From a virus (Duplodnaviria > Heunggongvirae > Uroviricota > Caudoviricetes): 64,000 bases of DNA. The stretch is taken from IMG/VR virus record IMGVR_UViG_3300023184_000031, positions 106,256 to 170,255 of that record. One strand, 5' to 3'. Every line of letters begins with the position of its first letter. Positions within the stretch are counted from its first letter, which is position 1. The position numbers and the translations under genes are program-made. The notes below the pieces were generated by a model. The model worked only from the letters and a program-made list of their open reading frames with translations. It did not search any database and had not been told where the DNA came from. Below, piece by piece: positions 39,675 to 52,691 of the stretch.

Positions 39675-39677
39675 GTT

Positions 39678-39800: not shown

Positions 39801-40135
39801 ATATAATATGGGGAATACTGTGGGGATTAGCAGCGCAAATAACTACTTTTATACAATTACAAGGCCAATTAAAATATGATTTTCTAAAACAAAATACCTG
39901 GTTTACAGTGTTAATGGGTATTCCTATTTCATTTATGTTTATGCAATCAGTAAAGAATTTCGTTGCTGGATTTCATGGTCAAATATGGCCTTCACGATTA
40001 ATAGGTTTTGGTATTGGTGTAATTGTATTTACAGTAATGTCTGAATTATTATTTAAAGAACCATTCACAACTAAAACAGGACTCTGTCTATTTTTAGGAA
40101 TTTGTATAATAGCGATTCAGGTATTCTGGAAATAA
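39797..40135 (+). CDS. Multi-pass small membrane protein (holin candidate, or EamA/ArnE-like).
   Basis: 112 aa with 3-4 hydrophobic segments, next to the endolysin. Confidence 0.45.
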   Translation: MNIIWGILWGLAAQITTFIQLQGQLKYDFLKQNTWFTVLMGIPISFMFMQSVKNFVAGFHGQIWPSRLIGFGIGVIVFTVMSELLFKEPFTTKTGLCLFLGICIIAIQVFWK

Positions 40136-40167
40136 GTGATATTTATTGTCACAAAACCATTATTACC

Positions 40168-41526
40168 ATGAAAAAGTTGATCACCCTCTTGCTGACTCTC
40201 TCTGTCCTTGTTGGAGCAGAAGCTCAAATCAAAAACATAGGACCAAAAGTAAACAGTACATACCACGAAATTCGCCCACTCGCTTCCGCAGACGGAACGA
40301 CTCTGTACTTCACAGTTCAAGGCAATCCAATTAACAAAGCTAAAGACGGACAAGACATTTGGATGTCTAAACGTGACTCTTTAGGTGAATGGGGTAAAGC
40401 ACAACGCTTACCAAATTACATTAACAGTGAAAAATATAATGGTGTATTTTCCATCTCAGCTGATGGTAATACATTAGTAATTAGAGGCAGGCGAAGCTCT
40501 TCAGGTTCGACTACACGCGGCTTTTCCAAGATTACAAAAATGGAAAATGGTGATTGGAGTATTCCTGAACCTTTAAAAATCCATGATTATGACAGATTAT
40601 CAAGAGGTATATATACAGGTGCTACTTTATCACCTGATGAAAAAGTATTGATAATGTATTTTTCTAATGAAATGAATAGTGATATGAATGACTTATGGAT
40701 AAGTCGTTTAAATGAAACTACAGGTGAATACTCAACACCATCTAAATTAAGTTTAAGCGAAGAAGATAATGATGAAATGAGTCCTTATATTGCCCCAGAC
40801 AATAAAACACTTTACTATGCATCAGACAGAAAAGGTGGTTTGGGTGGAATGGATATTTGGATGACAAGAAGAGTAGATGATACTTGGGAAAATTGGACAA
40901 TACCTGTTAATATGGGTAAACCAATTAACTCTAAAGGCTGGGATGCTTATTTTTCAGTAGATGTATTTGATAAAGCAGCTTACATCACTACAAACACTAA
41001 ATATAGCTTACCAGGTGATATGGGTGGTGCAGATATTGCTTATGTTAAATTACCAGACTCATTATTACCACTACCTATACCTCCAGCTCCTCCAGTATAT
41101 GATACTATTTATATTACTATAACTGATACTGTATATCAAAAGCAATTATGTGATCCACTTGATACTTTAAGTGGTGAAGAATTAGCGAAAGAATATAACA
41201 AAGGTAGAATATTATTTGATTTTGGTAGCTCAGTATTAAGACCCGATTCATATCATCAATTAGATATTATTGTTAAAATGATGAAAAATGACCCTAATAT
41301 GAAGATTGAATTAAGCGGTCACACAGATGCTGTTGGTATGGATAAAAGAAATATAGCTCAATCAGAAGAAAGAGCAATATCAACTAAACTATATTTAATA
41401 TCTAAAGGAATTGACCCTAATAGAATAAATACAGTGGGAATGGGAAATAAAGCACCTGTAGCACCAAATAGTACAGATGGTGGTCGTCAGTTGAATAGAA
41501 GAGTAGATATGAAGATAATAAATTAA
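40168..41526 (+). CDS. Secreted TolB-like repeat protein with C-terminal OmpA peptidoglycan-binding domain.
   Basis: Signal peptide 'MKKLITLLLTLSVLVGAEAQ'. C-terminal 'ELSGHTDAVGMDKRNIAQSEERA...NRRVDM' OmpA_C motif. Start trimmed to 40168. Confidence 0.75.
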   Translation: MKKLITLLLTLSVLVGAEAQIKNIGPKVNSTYHEIRPLASADGTTLYFTVQGNPINKAKDGQDIWMSKRDSLGEWGKAQRLPNYINSEKYNGVFSISADGNTLVIRGRRSSSGSTTRGFSKITKMENGDWSIPEPLKIHDYDRLSRGIYTGATLSPDEKVLIMYFSNEMNSDMNDLWISRLNETTGEYSTPSKLSLSEEDNDEMSPYIAPDNKTLYYASDRKGGLGGMDIWMTRRVDDTWENWTIPVNMGKPINSKGWDAYFSVDVFDKAAYITTNTKYSLPGDMGGADIAYVKLPDSLLPLPIPPAPPVYDTIYITITDTVYQKQLCDPLDTLSGEELAKEYNKGRILFDFGSSVLRPDSYHQLDIIVKMMKNDPNMKIELSGHTDAVGMDKRNIAQSEERAISTKLYLISKGIDPNRINTVGMGNKAPVAPNSTDGGRQLNRRVDMKIIN

Positions 41527-41548
41527 TACCTCACCATAAGAAAAATTA

Positions 41549-41574
41549 GGGCTTGGTTTTCCAAGCCCTTTTTT
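41549..41574 (+). terminator. Rho-independent terminator (copy 1 of a repeated hairpin).
   Basis: 'gggcttgg-tttt-ccaagccc' + 'tttttt'. The identical sequence recurs at 42241. Confidence 0.8.
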
Positions 41575-41680
41575 ATTGGGCAAGATAATATTCATATATT
41601 TAAGAACACGAATACTCCTTCGTAGAATATTAATCCGTTAAATTTCGATTTAACAATTTTTTTAACAAAACAAAACAAAC

Positions 41681-42217
41681 ATGAAAAAAGTAGTATTATT
41701 AGTAGTTGCTCTTATTGCAGCAATTACATTCACAAACGCACAAAACAACTTCAAAAAATCTAATAAATTTGTAGAAGGTACAGTATCTTACACAAAAGCT
41801 ACAGGTACTGATGCAGAATATGGATTTCAACCAACAGTTGGATATTTCTTAACTGATAGATTCGCAATTGGTGCTTCAGGCGCATTCGGTAAAGATGCAG
41901 CTGGTGTTAAAACAAACGGCATTGGCGCATTTGGGCGTTGCTATGTATTAAATATTGGTCAGAATTTGAAAACATTCTCACAATTAAACATAGGAACTGC
42001 ATCTGTTAATGATGCTGGTATTAAAACCTCTACATTTGGAGTTAATCTTGGTTTAGGTATAAACTATTTTGTTAGTCCTAAATTAGCTCTTACATTAAAT
42101 GTAGCAAATCTTGTAGATTATACAAGTATTAAATCTAACTCAACTTTTAATATTGGTTGGGAAGGTGTAACAAATCCATTAAGTACTTCTAAATTCGGAG
42201 TTTTATATAAATTCTAA
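41681..42217 (+). CDS. Outer-membrane beta-barrel protein.
   Basis: Signal peptide 'MKKVVLLVVALIAAITFTNAQ'. Alternating amphipathic strands. C-terminal '...FGVLYKF' aromatic terminus. Confidence 0.7.
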   Translation: MKKVVLLVVALIAAITFTNAQNNFKKSNKFVEGTVSYTKATGTDAEYGFQPTVGYFLTDRFAIGASGAFGKDAAGVKTNGIGAFGRCYVLNIGQNLKTFSQLNIGTASVNDAGIKTSTFGVNLGLGINYFVSPKLALTLNVANLVDYTSIKSNSTFNIGWEGVTNPLSTSKFGVLYKF

Positions 42218-42240
42218 TTTACACTATACGAAGGAGTTAA

Positions 42241-42266
42241 GGGCTTGGTTTTCCAAGCCCTTTTTT
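42241..42266 (+). terminator. Rho-independent terminator (copy 2, identical to 41549).
   Basis: 'gggcttggttttccaagccctttttt'. Confidence 0.8.
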
Positions 42267-42279
42267 GTATATTCATTGT

Positions 42280-43047
42280 ATGAAAACAATAGTATTAGGC
42301 GATACACACGGTCGCTCACAATGGAAATTAATAACACATCAAGAAAACGCTGATAGAGTAATTTTTATAGGTGATTACTTTGACAGTTATGATCTATCCG
42401 CGGTTGAGCAAATGCATAATTTCAAGGAAATTATTGAGTATAAGGAAACATCATTCACAAATGAAGGTACTTTAGACCAACATAAAACAGAAGTAATATT
42501 ACTAATTGGTAATCACGATCATCACTACTACCCAGAAATTGGTAATACAGGCACATCAGGTTATCAATATGGAGCAGCAGCCGCTATTAGCCAAGTAATA
42601 GATGAAAATAGAAAACATCTACAAATGGCTTACAGTTTTGATAAATTCCTATTTACCCACGCTGGTGTTAGTCCCGTGTTTATGGATCAAGTGTTTGGTG
42701 AAGATGGATGGGATAAGAATGATATAGTTAAGTTATTAAATGATAAAATGACATATCAACCTAAAACATTTAAGTTTAATGGATTGGAAGGTAGTGGTGA
42801 TAATACAACACAAACACCAATATGGATTAGACCAAGAAGTTTAATGTCTGTTAATAAGAAACATAAAAACGGATTAAAAAACGATTATATTCAAATAGTA
42901 GGGCATACACAAATGAAACATCTAGATCTAGTAGGATCAGATAAATTCACAGGAGGTAAATATTACTTTGTAGATACGTTGGATACTAGTGGTGAATATT
43001 TAATTATTGATGATGGAGAATTAAGAACAAATAGCTGGAAATCGTAA
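42280..43047 (+). CDS. Calcineurin-like metallophosphoesterase.
   Basis: 'IVLGDTHGR'. 'FIGDYFDSYD'. 'LIGNHDHHYY'. Start trimmed to 42280. Confidence 0.75.
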   Translation: MKTIVLGDTHGRSQWKLITHQENADRVIFIGDYFDSYDLSAVEQMHNFKEIIEYKETSFTNEGTLDQHKTEVILLIGNHDHHYYPEIGNTGTSGYQYGAAAAISQVIDENRKHLQMAYSFDKFLFTHAGVSPVFMDQVFGEDGWDKNDIVKLLNDKMTYQPKTFKFNGLEGSGDNTTQTPIWIRPRSLMSVNKKHKNGLKNDYIQIVGHTQMKHLDLVGSDKFTGGKYYFVDTLDTSGEYLIIDDGELRTNSWKS

Positions 43048-43108
43048 TATTTTGTAGGTTTCTGATATGTATTGCCGTAATATATTCATTAACCCAAAAT
43101 TACAAATT

Positions 43109-43282
43109 ATGAGATCTAATTTAAAAACCACCCTTGGTGGTATTTTAGCAGCAGTTGGTACTTTCTTAGTAAACTCACAAACTGGGACTTTAAATCTAGT
43201 AGGACAAATATGTCAAGTGATTGGTATATTCCTTATTGGTGCTATGGCTCAAGATGCAACTTCAGCTAAAAAAGAAGACTAA
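43109..43282 (+). CDS. Small membrane protein.
   Basis: 'MRSNLKTTLGGILAAVGTFLV...IGIFLIGAMA' two hydrophobic helices. Confidence 0.45.
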   Translation: MRSNLKTTLGGILAAVGTFLVNSQTGTLNLVGQICQVIGIFLIGAMAQDATSAKKED

Positions 43283-43308
43283 TAACTTCTGAAACCAAAA
43301 CTAATCAA

Positions 43309-43333
43309 CCCAGCTGAAAGGCTGGGTTTTTTT
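43309..43333 (+). terminator. Rho-independent terminator.
   Basis: 'cccagc-tgaaag-gctggg' + 'ttttttt'. Confidence 0.75.
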
Positions 43334-43336
43334 AAC

Positions 43337-43576
43337 TTGGCACAACTCTTTTCATATATTTACGGTATGAAAAATGTAAAGCAAAAAGATGATAAACGTG
43401 AGTGGTTCATAGTTATGAACTCTAGATTAGAATACTTTGCAGGGATGATGTATGGTGGTGAATTGGTTTGGTGTAGTGACTATAAAGAAGCAAAATTACT
43501 AGATGATGAAGCTAAGTTTCGAACATTAAGATCACTATCATATGGTGAGGAACTTATCTTAGATTATGTAGAATGA
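43337..43576 (+). CDS. Hypothetical protein.
   Basis: ORF. Confidence 0.45.
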   Translation: MAQLFSYIYGMKNVKQKDDKREWFIVMNSRLEYFAGMMYGGELVWCSDYKEAKLLDDEAKFRTLRSLSYGEELILDYVE

Positions 43577-43707
43577 AAAAAATAAAATGTAAAATTGGTA
43601 AATGGTTAAAATGTATTGTAGGACATGAGTGGGAAACCATTTATACATACAATGGCGTTACTTATTTTAGATGTAGAAGATGTGGTTCTCGAGGAAGTAA
43701 ATCGTAA
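43573..43707 (+). CDS. Small zinc-ribbon protein, 44 aa.
   Basis: 'CKIGKWLKC...H...CRRCG'. ATGA overlap with the upstream gene. Not in the ORF track. Confidence 0.3.
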   Translation: MKKIKCKIGKWLKCIVGHEWETIYTYNGVTYFRCRRCGSRGSKS

Positions 43708-43716
43708 ATTAAAGTT

Positions 43717-43938
43717 ATGACAAAAATAGCACCAGTTTATCCAAAACAAGATCCTGAATATAGGAAACGAGTAATGGAGCAGTTTTATAAGAAAGTAAGA
43801 GAAACAAATTGGAATGATACTTGTGGTGAGTATCAAGGTAAAGCTAGAGGCCGCAAAGCAAAAACAACAGAACGTCCCAAAGCACAACCTAGAACAGAAA
43901 AAGAACACAAAGCAAAATATGATTGGTTTAATAAATAA
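43717..43938 (+). CDS. Basic hypothetical protein.
   Basis: ORF with 'aagttatg' start context. Confidence 0.45.
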   Translation: MTKIAPVYPKQDPEYRKRVMEQFYKKVRETNWNDTCGEYQGKARGRKAKTTERPKAQPRTEKEHKAKYDWFNK

Positions 43939-43947
43939 ATATAAATT

Positions 43948-44181
43948 ATGAGTTACAGCGTTAGCGTTGATGTAGATATTGATGATGTACTATGGAATAT
44001 GAATAAGAGAGAAAAACAACAATTAGTAGATGATCTCTATGATGATGGTTATATTCCAAAACCATTAATAAATAATCACACAGATGATTTTAGTAAGGCC
44101 TGTAGGAAACTAATAGGTCAAGCATGGAGACTAACACGCGAAGAAGAAGAATATATTATTAACATATCAAAACGATTCTAA
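43948..44181 (+). CDS. Hypothetical protein.
   Basis: ORF. Confidence 0.45.
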   Translation: MSYSVSVDVDIDDVLWNMNKREKQQLVDDLYDDGYIPKPLINNHTDDFSKACRKLIGQAWRLTREEEEYIINISKRF

Positions 44182-44388
44182 ATGGAAGACAAATACAAAG
44201 CATTAAAAGATAAATACTTTGACTTTGAAGTATTCGAAGACATACTTCGAGCAATTGACAAACAACGCCACCCAGAACATGATATGTTCAATGCTGGGTT
44301 AGCTAGTGCTGATGGTGCTATTAGGCGCTTAAGAGAAGAATATTATGCCCTTATAAAAGAAATGCATGATTTGGAAGATAATAAATAA
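44182..44388 (+). CDS. Hypothetical protein.
   Basis: ORF. Confidence 0.45.
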   Translation: MEDKYKALKDKYFDFEVFEDILRAIDKQRHPEHDMFNAGLASADGAIRRLREEYYALIKEMHDLEDNK

Positions 44389-44456
44389 CATTGAACAGAG
44401 GTTCAATAAGGAATTTGGATGGTTTTTTATAAACGGGAATAAATTAAAATAAAGTT

Positions 44457-44654
44457 ATGAAATTAGCACTTAAATTTTTACTACTGTTAATACATTATGT
44501 TGTAGTGGCAGTAATTGTGTATTACATTGGTGACCTTATGACTAAGGATGTTAGTGGTGTAGGAGTAGCACCCAATGCTTTAGTATTGCTACTCTTAATA
44601 ATCAGTATAATATCACACACAAAACAGTTTATTTTATCATTTAAAAACAAATAA
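44457..44654 (+). CDS. Small two-TM membrane protein.
   Basis: Hydrophobic segments 'FLLLLIHYVVVAVIVYYIG' and 'ALVLLLLIISIISH'. Immediately upstream of the SPFH gene. Confidence 0.45.
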   Translation: MKLALKFLLLLIHYVVVAVIVYYIGDLMTKDVSGVGVAPNALVLLLLIISIISHTKQFILSFKNK

Positions 44655-44664
44655 AAACACAGTT

Positions 44665-45609
44665 ATGATTGGAACTTTAATTTTTATCTTATCTGCCCTT
44701 ATAATAGGGGGATCATTAGGAATCTTTAATGCAAAAACTTACGAAACAGCTCCAGATAAATATGGAGAGACAAATTTTAATCCAAAAGGTATGCTCAAAC
44801 TTGGATTAGTAGTAGCAATATCTTTAGTATTAGCATTAATTAACCCAGTAACAGTAGAACGTATTGATGTTGGTAATGTAGGACTAAAAGTAAATAATAC
44901 AGGTGATGAAAGAGGTGTTAGTAAGACAGCCTATGTAACAGGCTGGGTGTTTTATAACAGTTGGCTATCACGAATTAAAGAATTTCCTGTAACACAGCAA
45001 CATATTGATTACGAAGAGACATCTATCATTACCAAAGGAGGTTTCCAAGCCATTATCAAACCAAGCTTCAACTGGTCAGTCAACCCAGGTAATGCTGCTG
45101 ATATGTATCAAAACTTACGTCAGGATGTAGATCAAATTAAAGAAACATGGTTAAAAAATGCCATTATAGGTGCAGTTAATGATGTAGCTAACTTATATAG
45201 TGTAGATAGTATATTCAATCATAGAGCTGAATTTGAAGCTGATATAGTTAAAGAATGTAATAAACGTGTAAGTAAGTGGTTTAATGTTAGTCAGTTAAGA
45301 ACTAATATAGTACCACCTAAAGAAATTACTCAAGCAATTAATGCTAAGACAGCTGCTGTACAAGAAGCACAAGCCGCTATTCAACAGAAGATTGTAGCAG
45401 AAGCTCAAGCCTTAACTCAAATAGCTAAAGCTAAAGGTGATAGTGCTCAAGCAGTAATTGCAGCTGCTGGTAGAGCAGAAGCAGTAAAGAAAGAACAGCA
45501 ATTCTTAACACCACTATACATTGACTATTTAAAAGTACAAAAATGGAAAGGTGATGTACCAAATACAGTATTAGGATCTAACAGTAATACATTAATAAGT
45601 TTACCATAA
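44665..45609 (+). CDS. SPFH/band-7 (stomatin/prohibitin/HflC-like) membrane protein.
   Basis: N-terminal TM. Central SPFH-like domain. Ala/Gln-rich coiled coil 'AQAAIQQKIVAEAQALTQIAKAKGDSAQAVIAAAGRAEA'. Confidence 0.7.
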   Translation: MIGTLIFILSALIIGGSLGIFNAKTYETAPDKYGETNFNPKGMLKLGLVVAISLVLALINPVTVERIDVGNVGLKVNNTGDERGVSKTAYVTGWVFYNSWLSRIKEFPVTQQHIDYEETSIITKGGFQAIIKPSFNWSVNPGNAADMYQNLRQDVDQIKETWLKNAIIGAVNDVANLYSVDSIFNHRAEFEADIVKECNKRVSKWFNVSQLRTNIVPPKEITQAINAKTAAVQEAQAAIQQKIVAEAQALTQIAKAKGDSAQAVIAAAGRAEAVKKEQQFLTPLYIDYLKVQKWKGDVPNTVLGSNSNTLISLP

Positions 45610-45615
45610 GGAGAA

Positions 45616-45639
45616 GGGGGTCGTCAAGACCCCCTTTTT
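45616..45639 (+). terminator. Rho-independent terminator.
   Basis: 'gggggtc-gtcaa-gaccccc' + 'ttttt'. Confidence 0.75.
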
Positions 45640-45662
45640 ATATTTATACAAAACAATTAAGT

Positions 45663-45857
45663 ATGACAACTAAAGAAGAAATGTACATGAAATGCCTAAT
45701 GATTGAAGCATTCGTGAAATCCGTAGTAATTAACGGTATGACTGATAATGCAACACTAGTATCAATGGTTGATGAAACATTCCATCCTGAAACAAATGAA
45801 GAGATGGAAGCGTATTCCGAAGCGATTATTTATGCCAAATATTCAATACTAAATTAA
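45663..45857 (+). CDS. Hypothetical protein.
   Basis: ORF. Confidence 0.4.
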   Translation: MTTKEEMYMKCLMIEAFVKSVVINGMTDNATLVSMVDETFHPETNEEMEAYSEAIIYAKYSILN

Positions 45858-45880
45858 ATATAACTACTACTTAAGTAGCC

Positions 45881-45908
45881 ATGTTCCTCCATGAGGAACA
45901 TTTTTTTT
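45881..45908 (+). terminator. Rho-independent terminator.
   Basis: 'atgttcctc-catg-aggaacat' + 'tttttttt'. Confidence 0.75.
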
Positions 45909-45939
45909 CAATATTTATTGTAAACCAAAACCACAAACC

Positions 45940-47484
45940 ATGAAAAACTTAAAAAACCTTAAACTGCTTATATTAGCAGTGGTTTTATTATTCGGGTGTA
46001 GAAAAGATTCACTTTTCATTACAGATAATCCTGAAATTCCTAGTGTTGAATCTTTAGGCACAGGAGTAGTTCCTGATGACCCCGCTGCTGTTGAAAAAGT
46101 ACAGTTAAGAATTACACAAGATCTACTTGATGCTAAAATAGATTCTCTATTAGGTATTCCATCTTCTGAAAGAATAATAGCTAAAGGACCAAAAGAAAGA
46201 ATCCCACCTACTATTTCAATTACATCACCCTCTAACAACGACTCATTATCAGGTACTGTTACTATTAAATCAATTGCTACTGATAATATAGGTGTTGTAT
46301 CAGTTGCTTGTTATATTGATAATAACATATTAGCAACTGATGTAGCCGCTCCTTGGGATTTTACATTAAATACTCTAAACAGAGCAGGTGGTACGCATAT
46401 TATTAAAGTGACAGCTAAAGATGCTGCTGGTAATAGTGCATCTGCTTCTATTCAGGTAATAGTATATAACGGCTCAGGTGGTGGTGGAACTATTACTGAT
46501 ATAACTCCTCCATCAATTACAATTTTAACTCCTATAAATGGAACAACATTTAATATGGGAGATAACGTTAATATAACAACATCAGCAACAGATAATGTTG
46601 GTATAAGTAGTGTAAGTTTTAGTATTGATGGTACATTATGGGCTATAAAAACAATATCACCATATTCATATAACTGGTCTGCAATAAATGTACTTTCAGG
46701 TACACATACTATAACTGCAACAGCTAAAGATGCTGCTGGTAATAGTACATCAACAACTAATTTAATAACAATCAATACAATAATAACTCCACCAGTAAGC
46801 GGAGTACCTTCATCATTTGTATTAGTTACACCAACACCTAGAAGTCAAGGCGGAGAAGGCTCTTGTATGGCATGGGCAGTTGGCTACTCAGCATTCTCAA
46901 TAGATTGGGTATATAGAAATAATCAATCATCTTATAGTACAGCAACAAATATATTTAGCCCAGAATATCTTTATGATTATTATAGAATTAGATATGAAAT
47001 CCCAAACGGACAAGATCCCGCGAATTGTAATTTAGGTAGCTCACTTCAAGGTTGTGTTCAAATTATTCAAGACTCTGGGATTTGTACTTGGGATATGATG
47101 CCATATCAAAGTGGTATTTGTAATACAATGCCAAGTTCATCTCAATTTGCTAATGCTAGCCAACACAAATCAATTGGAACAACCAGAATTTATTCTACTG
47201 ATAGCGCTGGTATAAAAAATGCTATATATAATTTAAAGCATCCGATAATGATAGGAATGGATATTGATAATAATTTCTATAATGCTAGAGCTGGATACAT
47301 TTGGAATACATTTGGTACCAGCGTTGGTGGACACGGTTTAGCAGTAATTGGATGGGATGATAGTAAACATGCATTTAAAATAATGAACTCATGGGGTACA
47401 GGTTGGGGAGATGGAGGATTTTTATGGGTTGATTATAATATATTCTTTGCTCATACTTCATATTTTGTATATTATTTTAATTAA
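45940..47484 (+). CDS. Lipoprotein with two Ig-like domains and a C-terminal papain-family (C1) cysteine peptidase domain.
   Basis: 'LLFGCRKD' lipobox. Two ~80-aa repeats ending 'TAKDAAGNS'. 'QGGEGSCMAWAVGYS' (catalytic Cys). 'GGHGLAVIGWDD' (His). 'NSWGTGWGDGGFLWV' (Asn/Trp). Confidence 0.75.
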   Translation: MKNLKNLKLLILAVVLLFGCRKDSLFITDNPEIPSVESLGTGVVPDDPAAVEKVQLRITQDLLDAKIDSLLGIPSSERIIAKGPKERIPPTISITSPSNNDSLSGTVTIKSIATDNIGVVSVACYIDNNILATDVAAPWDFTLNTLNRAGGTHIIKVTAKDAAGNSASASIQVIVYNGSGGGGTITDITPPSITILTPINGTTFNMGDNVNITTSATDNVGISSVSFSIDGTLWAIKTISPYSYNWSAINVLSGTHTITATAKDAAGNSTSTTNLITINTIITPPVSGVPSSFVLVTPTPRSQGGEGSCMAWAVGYSAFSIDWVYRNNQSSYSTATNIFSPEYLYDYYRIRYEIPNGQDPANCNLGSSLQGCVQIIQDSGICTWDMMPYQSGICNTMPSSSQFANASQHKSIGTTRIYSTDSAGIKNAIYNLKHPIMIGMDIDNNFYNARAGYIWNTFGTSVGGHGLAVIGWDDSKHAFKIMNSWGTGWGDGGFLWVDYNIFFAHTSYFVYYFN

Positions 47485-47507
47485 TAATAACTTACCATAA
47501 TTAATTA

Positions 47508-47532
47508 AGCCCTCATTTTGAGGGCTTTTTTT
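47508..47532 (+). terminator. Rho-independent terminator.
   Basis: 'aagccctca-tttt-gagggctt' + 'ttttt'. Confidence 0.75.
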
Positions 47533-47561
47533 ATCATATTTATTGGAAACCAATTAAAAGT

Positions 47562-48137
47562 ATGAAACAGTCCCTCATTGTGCTGTTACTGCTGACCTTC
47601 TCTTTTATACTTAAAGCACAACCACTCGCCCAACAAGAAGTAGAACTATGTCCTGGTATTAGAACTAATTTTACTTACTTTTCCACTGCAATTACCACAA
47701 CAGGAAACTGGACGTGGACACTAAATGGAATCCCTATCTCCACAATTAGTAATACTAATATAAACTGGACTGATACAGGATATTTCACTATTAAAGTACA
47801 ATATATTGATAGCTGCGGTGTTGATACTAAATCATATATAGTACATGTATCTAAATGTAGACCAGCAGTTATATATTTTCCAAACGCATTTACACCCAAT
47901 AGAGATGGAATTAATGATGGTTGGAGACCTATAGGCGTTAATATAGTAAGTATAAAATATAACATCTGGAATAGATGGGGTGAAAGAGTATTTGAGGGTC
48001 ATAGCATGAATGATAAATGGAATGGGATGTATAAAGGAATGCCTCAAGATATAGCTACTTTTGTTGTACAAGCATTTTGGAAAGATATTACAGGAAAAGA
48101 GGGATATTACAAAGGTTTTATTATATTGATAAGATGA
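47562..48137 (+). CDS. Secreted protein with type-B T9SS (gliding-motility-associated) C-terminal domain.
   Basis: Signal peptide. 'VIYFPNAFTPNRDGINDGWRPIG...KWNGMYKGMPQDIATFVVQAF' matches the PNAFSPNGDGIND-type CTD. Confidence 0.7.
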   Translation: MKQSLIVLLLLTFSFILKAQPLAQQEVELCPGIRTNFTYFSTAITTTGNWTWTLNGIPISTISNTNINWTDTGYFTIKVQYIDSCGVDTKSYIVHVSKCRPAVIYFPNAFTPNRDGINDGWRPIGVNIVSIKYNIWNRWGERVFEGHSMNDKWNGMYKGMPQDIATFVVQAFWKDITGKEGYYKGFIILIR

Positions 48138-49258
48138 GAATATTATTAGTTATATTACTATTACCCTTTTTGGGTTATTCACAATGCGGTAATTTAGATT
48201 TTGAAACAGGTAATTTTACTGGTTGGAATGCTAGATTAGGTACTTGTTGTCCTATTGCTTTACCAACAGCTGGATTTGCTAATACCAGACAAACAATAAT
48301 GACCCAAGGCATTGATCCTCACACTTGTGGAGGATTAAGAACAGTATATCAAGGAACATACTCAGCAAGATTGGGCAATGATAGAGTAGGTGCTCAAGCA
48401 GAAGGATTATCATATTCATTTGTTGTGACACCTCAAACAAATATTATTAAATATGCTTATGCTGTTGTATTTCAAGACCCAGGACACTCTCCAGCTGATC
48501 AACCTCGATTTCAATCACGTGTTAGATTAGCAAATGGTACAGTAATACCTTGTACTGATTATACAGTAACAGCAGCATCTAATTTACCTGGGTTTCAGTA
48601 TTGTCCACCTCCACCTCCTGATACAGCAAATGTTGCTTGGAAAGATTGGACTGAAGTTGCTTTAGATTTATCTGCTTATACTGGTCAAACAGTATCACTT
48701 GAATTTGAAACAGGCGATTGCAAATTAAGAGGTCACTATGGATATGCTTATATAGATGCTGTTCAATGTGGAATGTTAGATACTCATGTACCCTATTGTA
48801 GTGGAGACAATTTATTAACTATAAACGCAATGGGTGGTTTTGTTAGTTATCTTTGGGAGAACGGAGATACAACTCAAACAACGACTATCAATCCTAATTT
48901 ATACGATACTGTATCTTGTGTTGTAACAACATATAGCGGCTGTCAAATAACATTACATTATATATTAGACGCAACACCAATTATTCCCTCATTTACAGCA
49001 CCTAATGTTTGTTTAGGTAACCCAACTCAATTCAATAACACAACACAACCACTTCCCGGTTATACACTGCTATATAGTTGGAATTTTGGTGATAATAATA
49101 CCTCTACTGTTGTTTCTCCATCTCATACCTATTTATCTGTAGGAACATATAATATTACACTTACTGCTAATGCATTAGGTAGTTCGTGTAATGCATCTGT
49201 TCAGGGACAAGTAATAGTAAAACCATTACCAACAATAACCCCAATTATACATAATTAA
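48134..49258 (+). CDS. Secreted protein with C-terminal PKD domain.
   Basis: Signal peptide 'MRILLVILLLPFLGYSQC'. 'YSWNFGDNNTSTVVSPSHTYLSVGTYNITLTA' PKD signature. ATGA overlap with the upstream gene. Confidence 0.7.
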   Translation: MRILLVILLLPFLGYSQCGNLDFETGNFTGWNARLGTCCPIALPTAGFANTRQTIMTQGIDPHTCGGLRTVYQGTYSARLGNDRVGAQAEGLSYSFVVTPQTNIIKYAYAVVFQDPGHSPADQPRFQSRVRLANGTVIPCTDYTVTAASNLPGFQYCPPPPPDTANVAWKDWTEVALDLSAYTGQTVSLEFETGDCKLRGHYGYAYIDAVQCGMLDTHVPYCSGDNLLTINAMGGFVSYLWENGDTTQTTTINPNLYDTVSCVVTTYSGCQITLHYILDATPIIPSFTAPNVCLGNPTQFNNTTQPLPGYTLLYSWNFGDNNTSTVVSPSHTYLSVGTYNITLTANALGSSCNASVQGQVIVKPLPTITPIIHN

Positions 49259-49267
49259 AAAGAAAAC

Positions 49268-51565
49268 ATGAAAAAAATCGTTTTATTATTAACACTATTA
49301 TTTACAATAGCATTCGCTAATGCTAGGAAATTTTATTTTAGTTCTTCAACCGGTAACGACAGTTACACTACAACACAAGCACAAAACCAAGCTACACCTT
49401 GGGCAACATTAAGGAAATTAACACAGATGACTACCAATACAAATGGTACAACTGTATTTAGAGCAGGTGATAGTATTTGCTTTAAACGTGGAGATGTATT
49501 TGCTAATGGAATGGCTAATGGGTATTGTTCAGCTTATTGGTGGAATGTACAAGGTGATGCTTATTTTACAGCACCAAGTGGCACACCAGGTAATCCAATA
49601 GTAATTACTAATTATGGTGATCCAACTTTACCATTACCAAACTGGTTATATCCAACTGCAACATACCCTGTATCGACTTGGAATAGTAGAGAAGGTAGAG
49701 CAGTAATTGAATTTTCAGGCGTTCACGATATTGTTGTAGACGGTATCCAATCAAATGATTTTAGAGTACCAGAATGGGATAAATCGAATCCTGGTTATAC
49801 AGCAGGTTGGATATTAGGAGAACCTACACGTTCACCTGCTTATGGACAAGCAGGTTGTGTTTCAGATACTAATTTAAGAAAACAATTTGTAAGAAGATTT
49901 ACACTTAAAAACTGTGTATTCAATAATTGTATCTATGGTATTCAAGATTGTGCAATGTGGGATAGTAAAATAACTAATTGTACATTTACAAACTTTAAAT
50001 CATCAGCTGATACAGCTGGTACACATGATATAATGGCAGGTTCATTAGATGGATTGTGTGGATTTAATCTTGAAATTAGTCATAACCTTATTAAAGGAGC
50101 TTGGGGTAAATCAGGTAGGATTGGTTCGTGTGGTGGATTAGGTGGTGTAGCATTAGATATCTTTTGTCTACAAGATTCAAGAGTATGTTACAACACTGTT
50201 ATAGATTGTGATGGATTTATTGAGGTGGGTAATTTAGATCATAACGACACATTGAGTGGTGCTCAAAGAGATACATTTGCCTTTAATAAAATTATTAACT
50301 GTGGTCAGTTTGCTTATATTCATGGCTCAGTAGGAGATCCATTCGCAGGTAACAACCACCATTTAGCTTTTTGGAATAATATATGCATATCAAATAATAA
50401 AGATAGGTTTATAGGTTGGGGATTTGGTAAAGATGTTTATGGAGACGGACAAGGATTTGGAGTTGGTACACGTCAACCTTGGTGGTTTCTAAGAGACCCA
50501 TTTAATACACTAAATGTTGATCAAATGAGACCAACAGTAAATACTGTTCGAGGTTCTAATGTTATAACAGTAAGTACAAATGCAGGAATTTCTATTGGGT
50601 CAGTTTGGTTTACGGATGATGATAATTTAGCTAGTAATAATTATAAAACTGTTACTGTAACGGCTATTAATGGTAATACGCTTACATTAAGTGACACAGC
50701 AACAAGAACTGTTAATGGCTTTGTTTGTTCTGGTGAATCAGGATTTTATCTCCCAGTATCTAATCAAACCTGGAGCAATCCAGCTAATGGAGCTTGGAGT
50801 AATTATGGTGGTGGTAGATTTACAATACAATACGCTGGCGACTTATATGTTCATGGTAATCAATATGATACTTTATTTGATATGAGAAATAATATATTCT
50901 ATTGGACTACAGGTATGCAGGGATTATATAATAGAACTAGATTTAAAAGAAATAATAATATATATATGCCAATTGGTGGCTGTCGATATCCATCAGCATT
51001 AGGAGGTACTTTAAATTCAAATGAAAGAATAATAACATCAAAAATATTTACTGATACTTTAGCTTTATATCCTGAAAATTGGGACTTACACCCAGTAGAT
51101 ACGAGTTATGCTTATAGAGGTGGAACTCCAATTCCAGGATTTAATGTTGATTTTGAAGGATATCCAATCACAGCTCCATTTATAGGATTATATACAAAAT
51201 TAGGTGCTGTTAGTATTGATACTTGTAGATTTACTTATGGACAATGGTCAGTATGCAATAGTAGTTATCAAACAAGACCATACACTACCTCACCTGTTAA
51301 CTGTATAGGAACACCTCCATTAGATAGTATTCAAAGAACTTGCAGTAATACAATTACAGTAACTCGTTTTTATTATAATTCAAGTCGCACTAGTATTCGT
51401 GTTGAATCTAACATAGCAGGGACGATAACAATTCAGAACACATTAGGACAAGTAGTTCGTGTGTTAAGTTATCCTGCAGGTAATAACTTGATTAATGTGA
51501 GTATGTTAGCAAGAGGATTTTATTTAGCATCAACTTACAATCAAACAATTCGATTCTTTAGATAG
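49268..51565 (+). CDS. Secreted right-handed beta-helix (pectate-lyase/depolymerase-like) protein with type-A T9SS C-terminal sorting domain.
   Basis: Signal peptide 'MKKIVLLLTLLFTIAFANA'. Repeated 'NC.F.N' beta-helix rungs. C-terminal ~80 aa 'TITIQNTLGQVVRVLSYPAGNNLINVSMLARGFYLASTYNQTIRFFR'. Confidence 0.7.
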   Translation: MKKIVLLLTLLFTIAFANARKFYFSSSTGNDSYTTTQAQNQATPWATLRKLTQMTTNTNGTTVFRAGDSICFKRGDVFANGMANGYCSAYWWNVQGDAYFTAPSGTPGNPIVITNYGDPTLPLPNWLYPTATYPVSTWNSREGRAVIEFSGVHDIVVDGIQSNDFRVPEWDKSNPGYTAGWILGEPTRSPAYGQAGCVSDTNLRKQFVRRFTLKNCVFNNCIYGIQDCAMWDSKITNCTFTNFKSSADTAGTHDIMAGSLDGLCGFNLEISHNLIKGAWGKSGRIGSCGGLGGVALDIFCLQDSRVCYNTVIDCDGFIEVGNLDHNDTLSGAQRDTFAFNKIINCGQFAYIHGSVGDPFAGNNHHLAFWNNICISNNKDRFIGWGFGKDVYGDGQGFGVGTRQPWWFLRDPFNTLNVDQMRPTVNTVRGSNVITVSTNAGISIGSVWFTDDDNLASNNYKTVTVTAINGNTLTLSDTATRTVNGFVCSGESGFYLPVSNQTWSNPANGAWSNYGGGRFTIQYAGDLYVHGNQYDTLFDMRNNIFYWTTGMQGLYNRTRFKRNNNIYMPIGGCRYPSALGGTLNSNERIITSKIFTDTLALYPENWDLHPVDTSYAYRGGTPIPGFNVDFEGYPITAPFIGLYTKLGAVSIDTCRFTYGQWSVCNSSYQTRPYTTSPVNCIGTPPLDSIQRTCSNTITVTRFYYNSSRTSIRVESNIAGTITIQNTLGQVVRVLSYPAGNNLINVSMLARGFYLASTYNQTIRFFR

Positions 51566-51634
51566 ATTTTAGCAGGTTTGTTGTTATAGATAGTAGTGGT
51601 CAATATTTATACCCGTAAATAACCATTAACTACC

Positions 51635-52642
51635 ATGAAAAAATTACTAGTGTGTCTTGTGACATTGTGGATATTGTCTACAAATGTCAACGCCCAATGT
51701 ACAGACGTATTTGGGAATATAGTCGAGTGTCCTACTGAGAACGACTCGCTAGCAGTTTACAACAACGCTTTAAAAGTATATGATTTTTACGAAAAGAGTC
51801 CTAATTATAGAAAATTATCTTCTAGAAAGTTAAGAACAAGACAAGACGTATTAAATTGTTTCTATAGTTTACAAGATGCAGTTGATAGTTTTAGAACATT
51901 ATGGCAAAGAAGAGAACAAGTATTAAAAGGAGCTGATTTACCTGGAGTATTATTACCTAGAGGGGGTAGAAATATACCTATAAATGAATATTATCAATAT
52001 ATTGATGCTTATAGATTCTATCAACGCGAATTAGAAAATGGAATATTAAATACTAATTCACCATTTCCTATTTATGATACTAGAATCAATCCTTTAGTTG
52101 TTAACTCATATAACAATGAAATAGGATATGATGATTTCAATGGTGACTTTGTTAACGTAGCATTATATATTCCAGTAACAATTAAGCCATTTAGATTATT
52201 AACTGATTCAGAAAAAGTAATAAGACAAAAGATACTTAGTGGTATAATTCCAAATAAGGTTATTCCAAAAACTACTAAAAAGGATAAACCAAAACCACAA
52301 ATACCACCTCCAGGTAAAAGAATAACATCTGATACTACATTATTACCTAGTGCTAATATTGATTTTGATACAATAAGATTAGTTAAAAAAGATGAAATGA
52401 TATTTGGTAAAGTACCATCTGATGGTATTCCTATATACTTATGGGAACCAAATGGTGGTGGATGGATAATTGGTTGGATGGTAAAAAGACAATTTAGAAA
52501 ATTCTTACCAACAGATGAACATTATTGGTCAGTACCTAAACGTATTAAAGCATTTTTAAATGATGATGCTGCTGTTGAGAAATACTTAAGATTAAAATAT
52601 GGTGACTACTATGATGGTTACTATTTTGGAGGGCAAGATTAA
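51635..52642 (+). CDS. Secreted hypothetical protein.
   Basis: Signal peptide 'MKKLLVCLVTLWILSTNVNA'. Confidence 0.5.
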   Translation: MKKLLVCLVTLWILSTNVNAQCTDVFGNIVECPTENDSLAVYNNALKVYDFYEKSPNYRKLSSRKLRTRQDVLNCFYSLQDAVDSFRTLWQRREQVLKGADLPGVLLPRGGRNIPINEYYQYIDAYRFYQRELENGILNTNSPFPIYDTRINPLVVNSYNNEIGYDDFNGDFVNVALYIPVTIKPFRLLTDSEKVIRQKILSGIIPNKVIPKTTKKDKPKPQIPPPGKRITSDTTLLPSANIDFDTIRLVKKDEMIFGKVPSDGIPIYLWEPNGGGWIIGWMVKRQFRKFLPTDEHYWSVPKRIKAFLNDDAAVEKYLRLKYGDYYDGYYFGGQD

Positions 52643-52691
52643 CTTCGTACATTCATAGTGTTAAATAATTAAAAACCAAAAACAATAAGTT

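What the first reader, a model, noticed from the sequence alone, without database searches (positions are those of the whole stretch)
45940..47484. Lipoprotein with tandem Ig-like domains and a papain-type cysteine peptidase.
It has a lipobox, two ~80-aa Ig-like repeats and a C-terminal domain with the full C1 catalytic signature (QGGEGSCMAW ... GGHGLAVIGWDD ... NSWGTGWGDGGF). Papain-family peptidases are unusual phage cargo. A surface-anchored protease could process host surface proteins or act in lysis or egress.
Basis: partly seen in the sequence, partly recalled or inferred. Interest (0 to 1): 0.55.

Follow-up and report, generated by a model that had tools for sequence, protein, structure and literature searches.

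The report
Phage-borne lipoprotein papain-type protease
A large T4-like phage of a Bacteroidota host carries a copy of its host lineage's exported, lipid-anchored papain-type protease, which probably trims proteins on the infected cell's envelope; the gene is real and intact but is a new member of a known enzyme family, not a new kind of system.

Summary
ORF 45940-47484 (+, 514 aa) encodes a lipobox signal peptide (Cys20), a conserved ~35-aa N-terminal segment, two tandem Big_7 Ig-like domains (40% identical) and a C-terminal Peptidase_C1 domain.

The window belongs to a ~170-kb T4-like phage contig. The gene is host-derived. Hundreds of full-length homologs (~40% identity, same architecture) sit in Chitinophagaceae chromosomes, usually next to a convergent large T9SS-sorted PKD protein. 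The phage copies form their own clade, have phage-like composition and are under purifying selection (dN/dS 0.12-0.30). The gene is accessory, bracketed by terminators, and lies among exported envelope proteins, including a secreted beta-helix depolymerase-like protein.

C1 peptidases are not rare on viral contigs, but this lipoprotein-Ig form is confined to this phage clade. The most likely role is proteolytic remodelling of host surface proteins during infection. That role is inferred, not shown. A lysis or virion role is unlikely. Verdict: new member of a known kind, moderate interest.

The parts
45881..45901 (+). Upstream terminator-like hairpin (ATGTTCCTC-cat-GAGGAACAT followed by a T-run) that ends the preceding 64-aa gene
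   Evidence: Terminator scan, (9 pairs; 24 sites found against 5.4 +/- 2.8 expected); sequence
45911..45918 (+). ATATTTAT box 21 nt upstream of the ATG; candidate phage promoter element shared with neighbouring genes
   Evidence: 14 of 16 + strand copies lie 4-24 nt upstream of ORF starts, against 0.74 expected for random positions (0 of 2000 trials reach 14). Promoter function is inferred.
45940..47484 (+). Complete gene for the 514-aa lipoprotein cysteine peptidase (stop codon included)
45940..45999 (+). Signal peptide with lipobox L-F-G-C; Cys20 (45997-45999) is the predicted lipidated first residue of the mature protein. It is followed by R-K-D-S, a partial Bacteroidota surface-export motif.
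   Evidence: Regex match. Cys20 is conserved 116/119, K at +3 115/119, E/D at +4 105/119. Motif definition C-X-K-(D/E)2-X from PMC5080379.
46051..46164 (+). Conserved N-terminal segment (residues 38-75, GVVPDDPAAVEKVQLRITQ...), ordered in the model and flanked by disordered linkers; candidate pro-segment or latch
   Evidence: pLDDT 81-91 for residues 41-70. G42, D46, D47, P55 and S59 are at least 90% conserved. The motif is present in Ig-less Bacteroidota homologs and in the one-Ig phage variant. Its function is inferred.
46201..46470 (+). Ig-like domain 1 (Big_7 / Big_13 type), residues 88-177
46498..46791 (+). Ig-like domain 2 (Big_7), residues 187-284
   Evidence: the Ig part matches C. thermocellum CbhA Fn3-like modules (PDB 3pdd)
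46804..47481 (+). Papain-family (C1) peptidase domain, residues 289-514. Codons: Q303 46846-46848, C309 46864-46866, H465 47332-47334, N483 47386-47388, W485 47392-47394. Invariant C363 and C394 are a candidate disulfide.
   Evidence: Pfam. hhalign against papain, probability 97.6%. Invariance. Foldseek TM 0.70-0.80 to xylellain, papain and cathepsin S. Coordinates.
47507..47527 (+). Downstream terminator-like hairpin (AAGCCCTC-att-TTGAGGGCTT followed by a T-run), 23 nt after the stop codon

Best explanation
The gene encodes an exported, lipid-anchored papain-family cysteine endopeptidase. An ancestor of this phage lineage most likely took it from a Chitinophagaceae-type host, and the lineage has kept it as an accessory gene with its own transcription signals.

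Proposed sequence of events:
1. During infection the precursor is exported by the host Sec pathway.
2. It is cleaved and lipidated at Cys20 and placed in the outer membrane. The C-R-K-D motif makes surface exposure possible but not certain.
3. The two Ig-like domains act as a stalk that holds the catalytic domain away from the membrane.
4. The conserved N-terminal segment may dock on the peptidase as a short pro-segment. If so, autoprocessing could release the Ig-Ig-peptidase from its anchor.
5. The active enzyme cleaves extracytoplasmic proteins of the infected cell. [quoted passage not shown]

In this reading the protease is one part of a phage gene set that rebuilds the host surface. Plausible benefits are removal of receptors (blocking superinfection and loss of progeny on debris) or detachment of the cell.

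Shown here: gene integrity, domain architecture, catalytic equivalence, host origin, purifying selection, and the export-rich genomic context. Inferred: activity, localisation, substrates and the benefit to the phage.
For: **Identity**
- Pfam Peptidase_C1 and two Big_7 domains score above their cut-offs.
- Q303/C309/H465/N483/W485 align with papain Q19/C25/H159/N175/W177 (the papain sequence was verified against the PDB).
- Q303, C309 and H465 are invariant in 119/119 homologs; N483 is kept in 114 and W485 in 118.
- The model has pLDDT 87, and Foldseek gives TM 0.70-0.80 to xylellain, papain and cathepsin S.

**Export**
- The lipobox is present and Cys20 is conserved.
- Cysteines C363 and C394 are invariant and align with papain disulfide cysteines C63 and C95.

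**The window is phage**
- It carries a gp43-type DNA polymerase, clamp, clamp loader and GroEL, and all genes are on one strand.
- It matches a 170,341-bp contig, and the exact protein is carried by four contigs read.

**Host origin**
- 783 homologs were found. The full-length architecture occurs only in Chitinophagaceae chromosomes, at about 40% identity.
- The five phage-type sequences form a separate clade.

**The phage copy is functional**
- dN/dS is 0.12-0.30 among phage copies.
- GC is 33.5% and GC3 14%, like the phage; bacterial copies have 41-46% GC.

**Own transcription unit**
- Terminators flank the gene and it has a shared upstream box.

**Surface and envelope theme**
- Neighbours with Sec signal peptides include a PorE/OmpA-like protein, an outer-membrane beta-barrel protein, a T9SS type-B cargo, a PKD protein and a secreted beta-helix depolymerase-like protein. 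An SPFH/Band 7 protein with an N-terminal hydrophobic segment also lies nearby.
- Much of this block is shared, in rearranged order, with related phage contigs.

**Link to T9SS cargo**
- In 20 of 24 bacterial loci, in both second paralogs examined, and in Ig-less Niastella and Flavihumibacter members, a convergent large PKD protein with a T9SS-type C-terminal domain lies directly downstream.
Against: - No activity, localisation or substrate data exist.
- The surface-export motif is incomplete: one acidic residue where the experimentally defined minimum has two. The enzyme could therefore face the periplasm.
- The bacterial partner gene is on the opposite strand, so the pairing might reflect shared ancestry of the locus rather than function.
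- The phage's 765-aa neighbour is not detectably related to the bacterial partners, and its T9SS type-A domain is unproven (17 bits against a cut-off of 23; hhalign probability 4%).
- No I29-type propeptide was found, so how activity is controlled is unknown.
- The direction of transfer (host to phage) rests on abundance and distribution, not on a rooted tree.
Confidence: 0.55

Rival explanations
1. Nutrient-scavenging auxiliary gene. The exported protease digests extracellular or surface-bound proteins, so the infected cell takes up more peptides and amino acids for virion production.
For: Hosts of this type are polymer degraders, and the family is abundant, with several paralogs per genome. 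The phage also carries other exported hydrolase-like proteins, such as the beta-helix protein. Phage-encoded T9SS cargo enzymes have been read this way before (PMC7468147).
Against: No peptide-uptake genes (SusC/SusD-like or TonB-dependent transporters) sit next to the gene in the phage or in bacteria. The one conserved bacterial neighbour is a large PKD surface protein, not a transporter. A membrane-tethered enzyme is poorly placed for bulk digestion.
Confidence: 0.18
2. Maturation or release protease for the phage's own exported proteins, for example the adjacent T9SS type-B cargo, the PKD protein or the 765-aa beta-helix protein. This would be analogous to Cwp84 processing the S-layer precursor in C. 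difficile.
For: The protease lies next to the 762-765-aa protein in the window and in L003/L004, and two genes away from it in L167. In bacteria the family is paired with a T9SS cargo gene.
Against: The 765-aa family (192 members) is far more widespread than the protease and occurs without it in L168. L007 has the protease but no 765-aa homolog within 10 kb. The Cwp84 analogy is recalled from memory and was not tested here.
Confidence: 0.14
3. Lysis or egress accessory. A periplasm-facing outer-membrane lipoprotein protease cuts the proteins that tether the outer membrane to peptidoglycan, helping the last step of lysis in place of, or alongside, a spanin.
For: The protein is a lipoprotein, as o-spanins are. 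The surface-export motif is incomplete, so it could face the periplasm. It shares the upstream ATATTTAT box with the M15 peptidase gene, a likely endolysin.
Against: The gene is accessory in this phage group. It lies about 6.9 kb and a dozen genes away from the M15 peptidase and small membrane-protein genes. Host genomes keep several chromosomal copies of the same architecture, which is hard to reconcile with an enzyme that breaks envelope integrity.
Confidence: 0.05
4. Virion-associated enzyme. The Ig-like domains decorate the particle and the protease clears a proteinaceous host layer during adsorption.
For: Ig-like domains are common on phage structural proteins. The Ig part of the model matches tail-fibre, Hoc-like and decoration proteins in BFVD.
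Against: A lipoprotein signal peptide routes the protein out of the cytoplasm, where virions assemble. The closest relatives are chromosomal bacterial lipoproteins. The gene lies among exported proteins, not among structural genes.
Confidence: 0.03
5. Artefact or dead gene: bacterial DNA mis-assembled into a phage contig, or a decaying pseudo-enzyme.
For: One close relative (P0002) was binned as 'Bacteroidota bacterium'.
Against: The exact protein is carried by four contigs read, from ENA, Logan and JGI sources. Its composition is that of the phage. It is syntenic with other phage contigs, including an IMG/VR viral genome. dN/dS is 0.12-0.30 and all catalytic residues are intact.
Confidence: 0.02

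Closest known systems
Papain family, MEROPS C1 (subfamily C1A) / Pfam PF00112
   Same: It has the same catalytic Gln-Cys-His-Asn(-Trp) set at equivalent positions, the same two-lobed fold, and the NSWG-x-x-WG motif.
   Different: No I29-type propeptide was detected. The papain C22-C63 disulfide is missing, since an invariant Glu stands at the C22 position, and C363 and C394 may pair instead. The domain is fused behind a lipobox, a short conserved N-terminal segment and two Ig-like domains. Sequence identity to solved C1A enzymes is only about 20%.
Xylellain (Xylella fastidiosa cysteine protease, PDB 3OIS)
   Same: It is the best solved-structure match by sequence (E 3.8e-8, residues 301-501) and by fold (Foldseek E 5e-15, TM 0.70, rmsd 3.0 A). 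It is a bacterial C1A enzyme without a classical I29 prodomain.
   Different: The solved xylellain chains (267-291 residues) carry only the peptidase region and have no Ig-like domains. Identity is about 20%. As recalled from the literature, xylellain has an N-terminal pro-region that covers the active site; whether residues 38-75 here do the same could not be tested.
Unnamed Chitinophagaceae family of Ig-Ig-C1 lipoproteins (annotated 'Ig-like domain-containing protein' or 'C1A family cysteine protease'; e.g. Lacibacter, Ferruginibacter, Flavisolibacter)
   Same: The architecture is identical end to end: lipobox, N-terminal motif, two Big_7 domains and the C1 domain. Identity is about 40% over 97-100% of the length.
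   Different: The phage copies form their own clade and have phage base composition. They sit in a phage exported-protein block instead of next to the convergent T9SS-sorted PKD partner. No member of the family has been characterised.
Bfp3, a C10 (SpeB-like, clan CA) cysteine protease on the excisable prophage Bfgi2 of Bacteroides fragilis 638R (PMC2873492)
   Same: It is a phage-borne clan CA cysteine protease with a lipoprotein signal sequence in a Bacteroidota host.
   Different: It belongs to a different family (C10, not C1), is carried by a temperate siphovirus-like prophage and has no Ig domains. Some Bfp paralogs are paired with staphostatin-like inhibitors, and no inhibitor gene was found here.
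Single-domain Peptidase_C1 proteins of uncultured tailed phages and giant viruses (BFVD, IMG/VR, PHROG 16701)
   Same: They have the same catalytic domain, with TM up to 0.77. There are at least 182 relatives in IMG/VR and a PHROG 16701 hit at E 4.6e-7.
   Different: Those proteins are mostly 245-330 aa, lack export signals and often begin with a GWKRD-x-PD-x-RD motif. Identity is 21-35%. Only the close relative L007 has the lipobox.
Phage-encoded T9SS cargo proteins of 'Cryophage' (PMC7468147)
   Same: That phage of a Bacteroidota host also encodes proteins routed to the host cell surface, and they are variable accessory genes.
   Different: The protease has no T9SS C-terminal domain and uses the lipoprotein route. 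T9SS domains occur on its neighbours: a clear type B domain on the 191-aa protein and a doubtful type A domain on the 765-aa protein.

Membership tests
Papain family (MEROPS C1 / Pfam PF00112) | Profile match above the curated threshold | tested here: met
   PF00112 scores 45.8 bits against a cut-off of 20.7, E 1e-11. All significant PDB sequence matches to the peptidase domain are C1 enzymes.
Papain family (MEROPS C1 / Pfam PF00112) | Nucleophile Cys equivalent to papain Cys25, with the oxyanion-hole Gln19 six residues upstream | tested here: met
   hhalign of the 119-sequence profile against papain (probability 97.6%) aligns Q303 with Q19 and C309 with C25. Both are invariant in 119/119.
Papain family (MEROPS C1 / Pfam PF00112) | General-base His equivalent to His159, with Asn175 and Trp177 in the N-S-W motif | tested here: met
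   H465 aligns with H159, N483 with N175 and W485 with W177. Conservation is 119/119, 114/119 and 118/119.
Papain family (MEROPS C1 / Pfam PF00112) | Papain fold (helical L lobe plus beta-barrel R lobe) | tested here: met
   The peptidase domain of the AlphaFold model has pLDDT mostly above 90. Foldseek gives TM 0.70-0.80 and rmsd about 3 A to xylellain, papain and cathepsin S. Triad distances could not be measured because no coordinates were available.
Papain family, subfamily C1A zymogens | I29-type N-terminal inhibitory propeptide (typical of the subfamily, not defining for C1) | tested here: not met
   There was no I29 hit in Pfam. Zymogen structures match less well than mature enzymes (TM 0.53-0.59 against 0.75-0.80). 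A short conserved N-terminal segment might substitute, but this is untested.
Papain family (MEROPS C1 / Pfam PF00112) | Proteolytic activity sensitive to E-64 | not testable with these tools
   This needs a biochemical assay.
Bacterial lipoproteins (signal peptidase II substrates) | Positively charged n-region, hydrophobic h-region and a lipobox [LVI..]-x-[AGS]-C within the first ~35 residues | tested here: met
   LILAVVLLFGC matches the rule {DERK}(6)-[LIVMFWSTAG](2)-[LIVMFYSTAGCQ]-[AGS]-C, with K2, K5 and K8 upstream (pattern recalled from PROSITE PS51257). Cys20 is conserved 116/119. Lipidation itself is not testable here.
Surface-exposed Bacteroidota lipoproteins (lipoprotein export signal) | C-X-K-(D/E)2-X directly after the lipidated Cys (PMC5080379) | tested here: inconclusive
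   The target has C-R-K-D-S, with K at +3 and a single acidic residue at +4. Across the family, K at +3 is kept in 115/119 and E/D at +4 in 105/119, but +5 is acidic in only about 28/119. The motif was defined in Capnocytophaga, and the Chitinophagaceae consensus is unknown.
Big_7 bacterial Ig-like domains (PF17957) | Profile match, beta-sandwich fold, tandem copies | tested here: met
   Big_7 scores 121 bits with two stretches. The model shows all-beta domains at residues 91-175 and 192-283 with pLDDT above 90. The repeats are 40% identical.
T9SS cargo proteins | C-terminal sorting domain of type A (TIGR04183 / PF18962) or type B (TIGR04131 / PF13585) | tested here: not met
   Neither domain was hit on the protease in Pfam or NCBIfam, and the protein ends with the peptidase domain. 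The 191-aa neighbour does carry a type B domain (43.6 bits against a cut-off of 35).
Phage 'moron' (independently transcribed accessory gene) | Own terminator and promoter, variable presence among related phages, function not needed for the core lytic cycle | tested here: inconclusive
   Terminator-like hairpins lie on both sides. The ATATTTAT box is positionally enriched upstream, but promoter activity is untested. The gene is absent from relative L168 and present in a different form in L167.
Anti-phage defence systems (PADLOC) | Match to a known defence protein model | tested here: not met
   There were no PADLOC hits for the protease or its exported neighbours.

The most novel reading that the evidence does not exclude
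The Ig-C1 lipoproteins could be dedicated sheddases or maturases for T9SS-delivered surface proteins in Chitinophagaceae, as their conserved pairing with a large T9SS-sorted PKD protein suggests. The phage would then deploy its own copy, together with a secreted beta-helix depolymerase-like enzyme, T9SS cargo proteins, a PorE-like protein and an ~18-kb glycan-synthesis cluster, to re-surface the infected cell. That would make it a proteolytic receptor-destroying or superinfection-exclusion factor, a mechanism that, to my knowledge, has not been described for phages.
Probability: 0.15. Interest if true: 0.7.

Novelty: new member of a known kind. Interest (0 to 1): 0.35.

Why it matters
If the protease is active on the infected cell's envelope, it adds a proteolytic tool to the ways phages edit host surfaces. 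Known examples are lipoprotein blockers such as T5 Llp, O-antigen conversion and soluble depolymerases.

It also shows a large phage of Bacteroidota hosts borrowing the host's lipoprotein and type IX secretion routes for a whole set of exported proteins.

The bacterial side may matter more. An uncharacterised but abundant family of lipoprotein papain-type proteases is consistently paired with a T9SS cargo gene in Chitinophagaceae. That suggests a testable protease-substrate pair.

The protease on its own is an ordinary, well-conserved member of a very well-known enzyme family.

Tried and rejected
1. Megablast of 24 kb around the gene against deposited phages found nothing. tblastn of the protein found one weak hit in a 595-kb uncultured phage. 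There is no close sequenced relative.
2. A PADLOC scan found no defence-system match for the protease or its neighbours.
3. I tested whether the phage 765-aa neighbour is the counterpart of the bacterial T9SS partner. BLASTP found nothing and a profile comparison of the C-termini gave 4% probability, so I rejected homology.
4. The generic Bacteroidota -7 promoter motif TAnnTTTG is not enriched (99 found, 103 expected). Sigma-70-type promoter matches are not enriched either (85 found, 81 expected).
5. Model coordinates are not exposed to the scripting environment. I could not measure the Cys-His distance or check whether residues 38-75 occupy the active-site cleft.
6. I looked for a conserved inhibitor or transporter gene next to homologs. 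None turned up in 24 close and 55 distant bacterial loci; the only conserved neighbour is the T9SS-type partner, and only in Chitinophagaceae.
7. Literature searches for this phage group or for phage C1 lipoproteins found no direct report.
8. The two 107-aa ORFs on the minus strand inside the gene (45915-46238 and 46452-46775) were dismissed as by-products of the long, homology-supported + strand ORF.
Full report
The + strand ORF 45940-47484 (514 aa) exists as described, and the three quoted motifs sit at residues 303-312, 463-474 and 483-494. Pfam finds two Big_7 Ig-like domains (E 2.7e-35) and Peptidase_C1 (45.8 bits, cut-off 20.7). The two Ig repeats (88-177 and 187-284) are 40% identical, E 7e-18. 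The N-terminus MKNLKNLKLLILAVVLLFGC fits the lipoprotein signal rule (rule recalled from PROSITE).

**2. The catalytic residues are positionally equivalent to papain's.** I aligned the protein with 118 homologs (A1) and compared that profile with mature papain. hhalign gave 97.6% probability. It aligned Q303 with Q19, C309 with C25, H465 with H159, N483 with N175 and W485 with W177. Q303, C309 and H465 are invariant in 119/119; N483 is kept in 114 and W485 in 118.

The AlphaFold model is confident (mean pLDDT 87.2, pTM 0.73, peptidase domain mostly above 90). Foldseek places the C-terminal domain on xylellain (E 5e-15, TM 0.70, rmsd 3.0 A), papain (TM 0.77) and cathepsin S (TM 0.80). All PDB sequence hits to the domain are C1 enzymes. 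No I29 propeptide was found. The invariant C363 and C394 align with papain's disulfide cysteines C63 and C95, while papain's C22 is replaced by an invariant Glu. This suggests a rearranged disulfide and fits an extracytoplasmic location (inference).

**3. The window is a phage.** All long ORFs are on the + strand. PHROG hits include a T4 gp43-type DNA polymerase (E 3e-157), a sliding clamp, a clamp loader, an exonuclease and a GroEL-like chaperonin. There are two tRNA genes. The polymerase is at most 34% identical to that of any deposited phage, and there is no nucleotide match to deposited phages. The exact protein occurs on a 170,341-bp ENA contig whose gene order matches the window, and on further contigs from other sources. 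An IMG/VR viral genome (L007) encodes a 69%-identical full-length copy.

**4. The gene is host-derived and maintained.**
- A protein search found 783 homologs. About 115 of the 120 listed are ~500-aa proteins with the same architecture at about 40% identity. Many come from Lacibacter, Ferruginibacter and Flavisolibacter, on contigs up to 4.8 Mb.
- A scan of species-representative genomes found at least 549 relatives. The full-length form occurs only in Chitinophagaceae. The peptidase domain alone (35-48% identity) is widespread in Bacteroidota.
- Five sequences (54-86% identical to each other) form a clade apart from the 114 bacterial ones. Two of these clusters were checked and lie on phage-like contigs.
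- Among phage copies dN/dS is 0.12-0.30, in the N-terminal, Ig and peptidase parts alike.
- The gene's GC (33.5%) and GC3 (14%) match the phage, not the bacterial copies (41-46% GC, GC3 24-40%).

The acquisition is therefore old and the gene is under selection in the phage. It is not core. Relative L168 lacks it within 10 kb of a conserved marker gene. Relative L167 carries a 461-aa variant with one Ig domain, 30% identical, that keeps the lipobox, the N-terminal motif and the catalytic motifs.

**5.
- After Cys20 comes R-K-D-S. The experimentally defined surface-export signal of Bacteroidota lipoproteins is C-X-K-(D/E)2-X (PMC5080379). The family conserves K at +3 (115/119) and E/D at +4 (105/119), but not a second acidic residue. 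Surface exposure is therefore possible but unproven.
- Residues 41-70 are ordered in the model (pLDDT 81-91) between disordered linkers, and they carry near-invariant residues.
- A related motif follows the lipobox in small (280-385 aa) Ig-less C1 lipoproteins of Niastella, Chryseobacterium, Ancylomarina and Bacteroidales, where it directly precedes the peptidase.
- The Ig domains thus appear to be inserted between this segment and the catalytic domain. Retention of the segment suggests that it contacts the peptidase, perhaps as a short pro-segment (inference).

**6. Transcription unit.** Terminator-like hairpins are enriched in 38-53 kb (24 found against 5.4 +/- 2.8 expected). Two strong ones bracket the gene, at 45881-45901 and 47507-47527. 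An ATATTTAT box lies 21 nt before the ATG. Across the window, 14 of 16 + strand copies of this box lie 4-24 nt upstream of ORF starts, against 0.74 expected. The genes it precedes include the M15 peptidase, the OmpA-like gene and the T9SS-cargo gene. I read it as a phage promoter element (inference). The generic host-type motifs are not enriched.

**7. Genomic company in the phage.** Between 38.6 and 52.6 kb lie the following genes:
- an M15_4 peptidase, the likely endolysin;
- a PorE/CHU_0125-like OmpA protein with PD40 repeats, and an outer-membrane beta-barrel protein;
- an SPFH protein;
- the protease;
- a 191-aa protein with a T9SS type-B sorting domain (43.6 bits against a cut-off of 35);
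- a PKD protein;
- a 765-aa protein and a 335-aa protein.

Six of these carry Sec signal peptides. I modelled the 765-aa protein from 56 homologs (pLDDT 84.9). It is a right-handed beta-helix with a C-terminal beta-sandwich, and its best matches are GH136 lacto-N-biosidases, pectate, alginate and rhamnogalacturonan lyases and phage capsule depolymerases. TM-scores are modest, 0.3-0.58. Its family (192 members) occurs only on contigs of 320 kb or less, so it looks phage-specific. Related contigs L003 and L004 share the OmpA-like (50%), protease (72%), PKD (70%), 765-aa (64%) and 335-aa (64%) genes in rearranged order.

**8. Genomic company in bacteria.** In 20 of 24 loci with close homologs, the only conserved neighbour is a convergent gene 70-700 bp downstream. 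It encodes a large protein (up to 1,433 aa) with PKD repeats and a T9SS type-A-like C-terminus. The second paralogs in Lacibacter sp. H375 and L. luteus each have their own such partner, 65-84% identical to other partners. The pairing also holds for Ig-less members in Niastella and Flavihumibacter, but not in Chryseobacterium or Bacteroidales. The phage's 765-aa protein is not related to these partners.

**9. Most likely mechanism.** I commit to the following. The precursor is exported by Sec, lipidated at Cys20 and anchored in the outer membrane. The Ig stalk presents an active papain-type endopeptidase to extracytoplasmic proteins. The phage uses it, along with the neighbouring exported proteins, to remodel the infected cell's surface. 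T9SS-delivered surface proteins are the most probable substrates.

My confidence in the molecular identity is about 0.9. My confidence in the whole statement, including the surface-remodelling role, is 0.55. The rivals are:
- nutrient scavenging (0.18);
- processing of the phage's own exported proteins (0.14);
- a lysis accessory (0.05), disfavoured because the gene is accessory, distant from the lysis genes, and present in multiple copies in host chromosomes;
- a virion enzyme (0.03), disfavoured by the lipoprotein signal;
- an artefact or dead gene (0.02), refuted.

**10. Comparison with what is known.** The protein meets every sequence and fold criterion of the papain family that could be tested. 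The closest solved structure is xylellain. Viral C1 peptidases are already catalogued: IMG/VR has at least 182, BFVD lists several from uncultured tailed phages and giant viruses, and PHROG 16701 matches. Those examined are mostly short and lack export signals, and only the close relative L007 has a lipobox. A phage-borne clan CA lipoprotein protease in a Bacteroidota host has a precedent in Bfp3, but that enzyme is family C10 and sits on a temperate prophage (PMC2873492). Phage-encoded T9SS cargo has been reported once, for 'Cryophage' (PMC7468147).

**11. Verdict.** The finding is real and correctly described. It is a new member of a known kind: a host-derived papain-family lipoprotein in a phage. 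Interest is moderate (0.35). It comes less from the protease itself than from two things around it. One is the phage's unusually rich set of exported envelope proteins. The other is the conserved protease-T9SS cargo pairing in Chitinophagaceae, which suggests an experimentally testable protease-substrate pair.

Noticed in passing
window 13361-34435: An ~18-kb run of co-directional, often overlapping genes (16.4-34 kb) with markedly low GC (0.23-0.30 against 0.32-0.36 elsewhere) encodes sugar-nucleotide and glycan biosynthesis enzymes. These include two GDP-mannose-dehydratase-like enzymes, an epimerase, a DegT aminotransferase, a TPP enzyme, a HAD + nucleotidyltransferase fusion, and GT2 and GT10 transferases. 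Two glycosyltransferases precede the run at 13361-16137. This is a large glycan-synthesis island for a phage.
   Followed up: partly
window 49268-51565: A 765-aa protein with a Sec signal peptide models as a right-handed beta-helix plus a C-terminal beta-sandwich. It resembles glycan lyases and hydrolases and phage depolymerases. Its family of 192 proteins occurs only on contigs of 320 kb or less, some members with Por_Secre_tail or SprB-repeat annotations. It looks like an exported, not virion-borne, depolymerase-like protein. The T9SS type-A domain is unproven.
   Followed up: yes
window 47562-49258: A 191-aa protein carries a signal peptide and a T9SS type-B (CHU_C / TIGR04131) sorting domain. 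A 374-aa PKD protein follows, and its start overlaps the previous stop. Together with the 765-aa gene these look like one operon of phage-encoded secreted proteins.
   Followed up: partly
window 40168-42217: A 452-aa exported protein with PD40 repeats and an OmpA C-terminal domain gives partial, sub-threshold matches to PorE (a T9SS component) and to CHU_0125-family OmpA proteins. A 178-aa outer-membrane beta-barrel-like protein follows it. The OmpA-like gene is shared with L003 and L004 at 50% identity.
   Followed up: partly
window-wide; e.g. 2761, 9659, 34435, 38625, 40139, 45640, 45911, 47536, 51603, 56707: The 8-mer ATATTTAT is not over-represented overall (25 found, 25 expected). However, 14 of its 16 + strand copies lie 4-24 nt upstream of ORF starts, against 0.74 expected. 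It is a candidate phage promoter box, reminiscent in position of T4 late promoters.
   Followed up: partly
window 38000-53000: Intrinsic-terminator-like hairpins are about four times more frequent than in shuffled sequence (24 against 5.4). They separate many genes into single-gene units.
   Followed up: no
window 8021-9655: The phage encodes a GroEL-like chaperonin (PHROG 5725, E 9e-149). A 427-aa ORF on the opposite strand (7876-9159) overlaps it and is probably spurious.
   Followed up: no
window 37009-37385: Two tRNA genes, tRNA-Gln(TTG) and tRNA-Glu(TTC).
   Followed up: no
window 44665-45609: An SPFH/Band 7 protein (PHROG 200, annotated 'lipoprotein', E 1e-52) with an N-terminal hydrophobic segment lies two genes upstream of the protease. 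Its role is unknown.
   Followed up: no
window 38646-40135: A likely lysis region: a Peptidase_M15_4 protein (138 aa) is followed by a 165-aa protein and a 112-aa protein with a hydrophobic N-terminus. It lies about 6.9 kb upstream of the protease.
   Followed up: no
L006 9587-13888; L090 6836-10948; L169 8578-10543; L170 8614-10757; L124 5716-9606 (bacterial loci): In Chitinophagaceae, C1 lipoprotein genes (with or without Ig domains) are followed by a convergent gene for a large PKD-repeat protein with a T9SS-type C-terminus. This holds in 20 of 24 loci and for the second paralog examined in each of two genomes. Two Lacibacter assemblies break inside this partner gene.
   Followed up: yes
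L111-L162 (Bacteroidota genomes): A wider subfamily of small (280-385 aa) C1 lipoproteins in Niastella, Chryseobacterium, Ancylomarina, Rikenellaceae and Bacteroidales shares a short motif after the lipobox (e.g. LGCNLLPAEEYAKIPV). The motif corresponds to residues 40-57 of the phage protein.
   Followed up: partly
L008-L086 (IMG/VR contigs): Many viral C1 peptidases, including some from giant-virus MAGs and some on contigs of 150-285 kb, are ~250-aa proteins without signal peptides. They start with a shared GWKRD-x-PD-x-RD motif and form a separate, apparently cytoplasmic, viral C1 group.
   Followed up: no
window 3417-6032: The gp43-type DNA polymerase is at most 34% identical to that of any of 50,697 deposited phages; the best match is Microcystis phage Mel-JY01. 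The phage therefore belongs to a deeply divergent T4-like lineage without cultured relatives.
   Followed up: no
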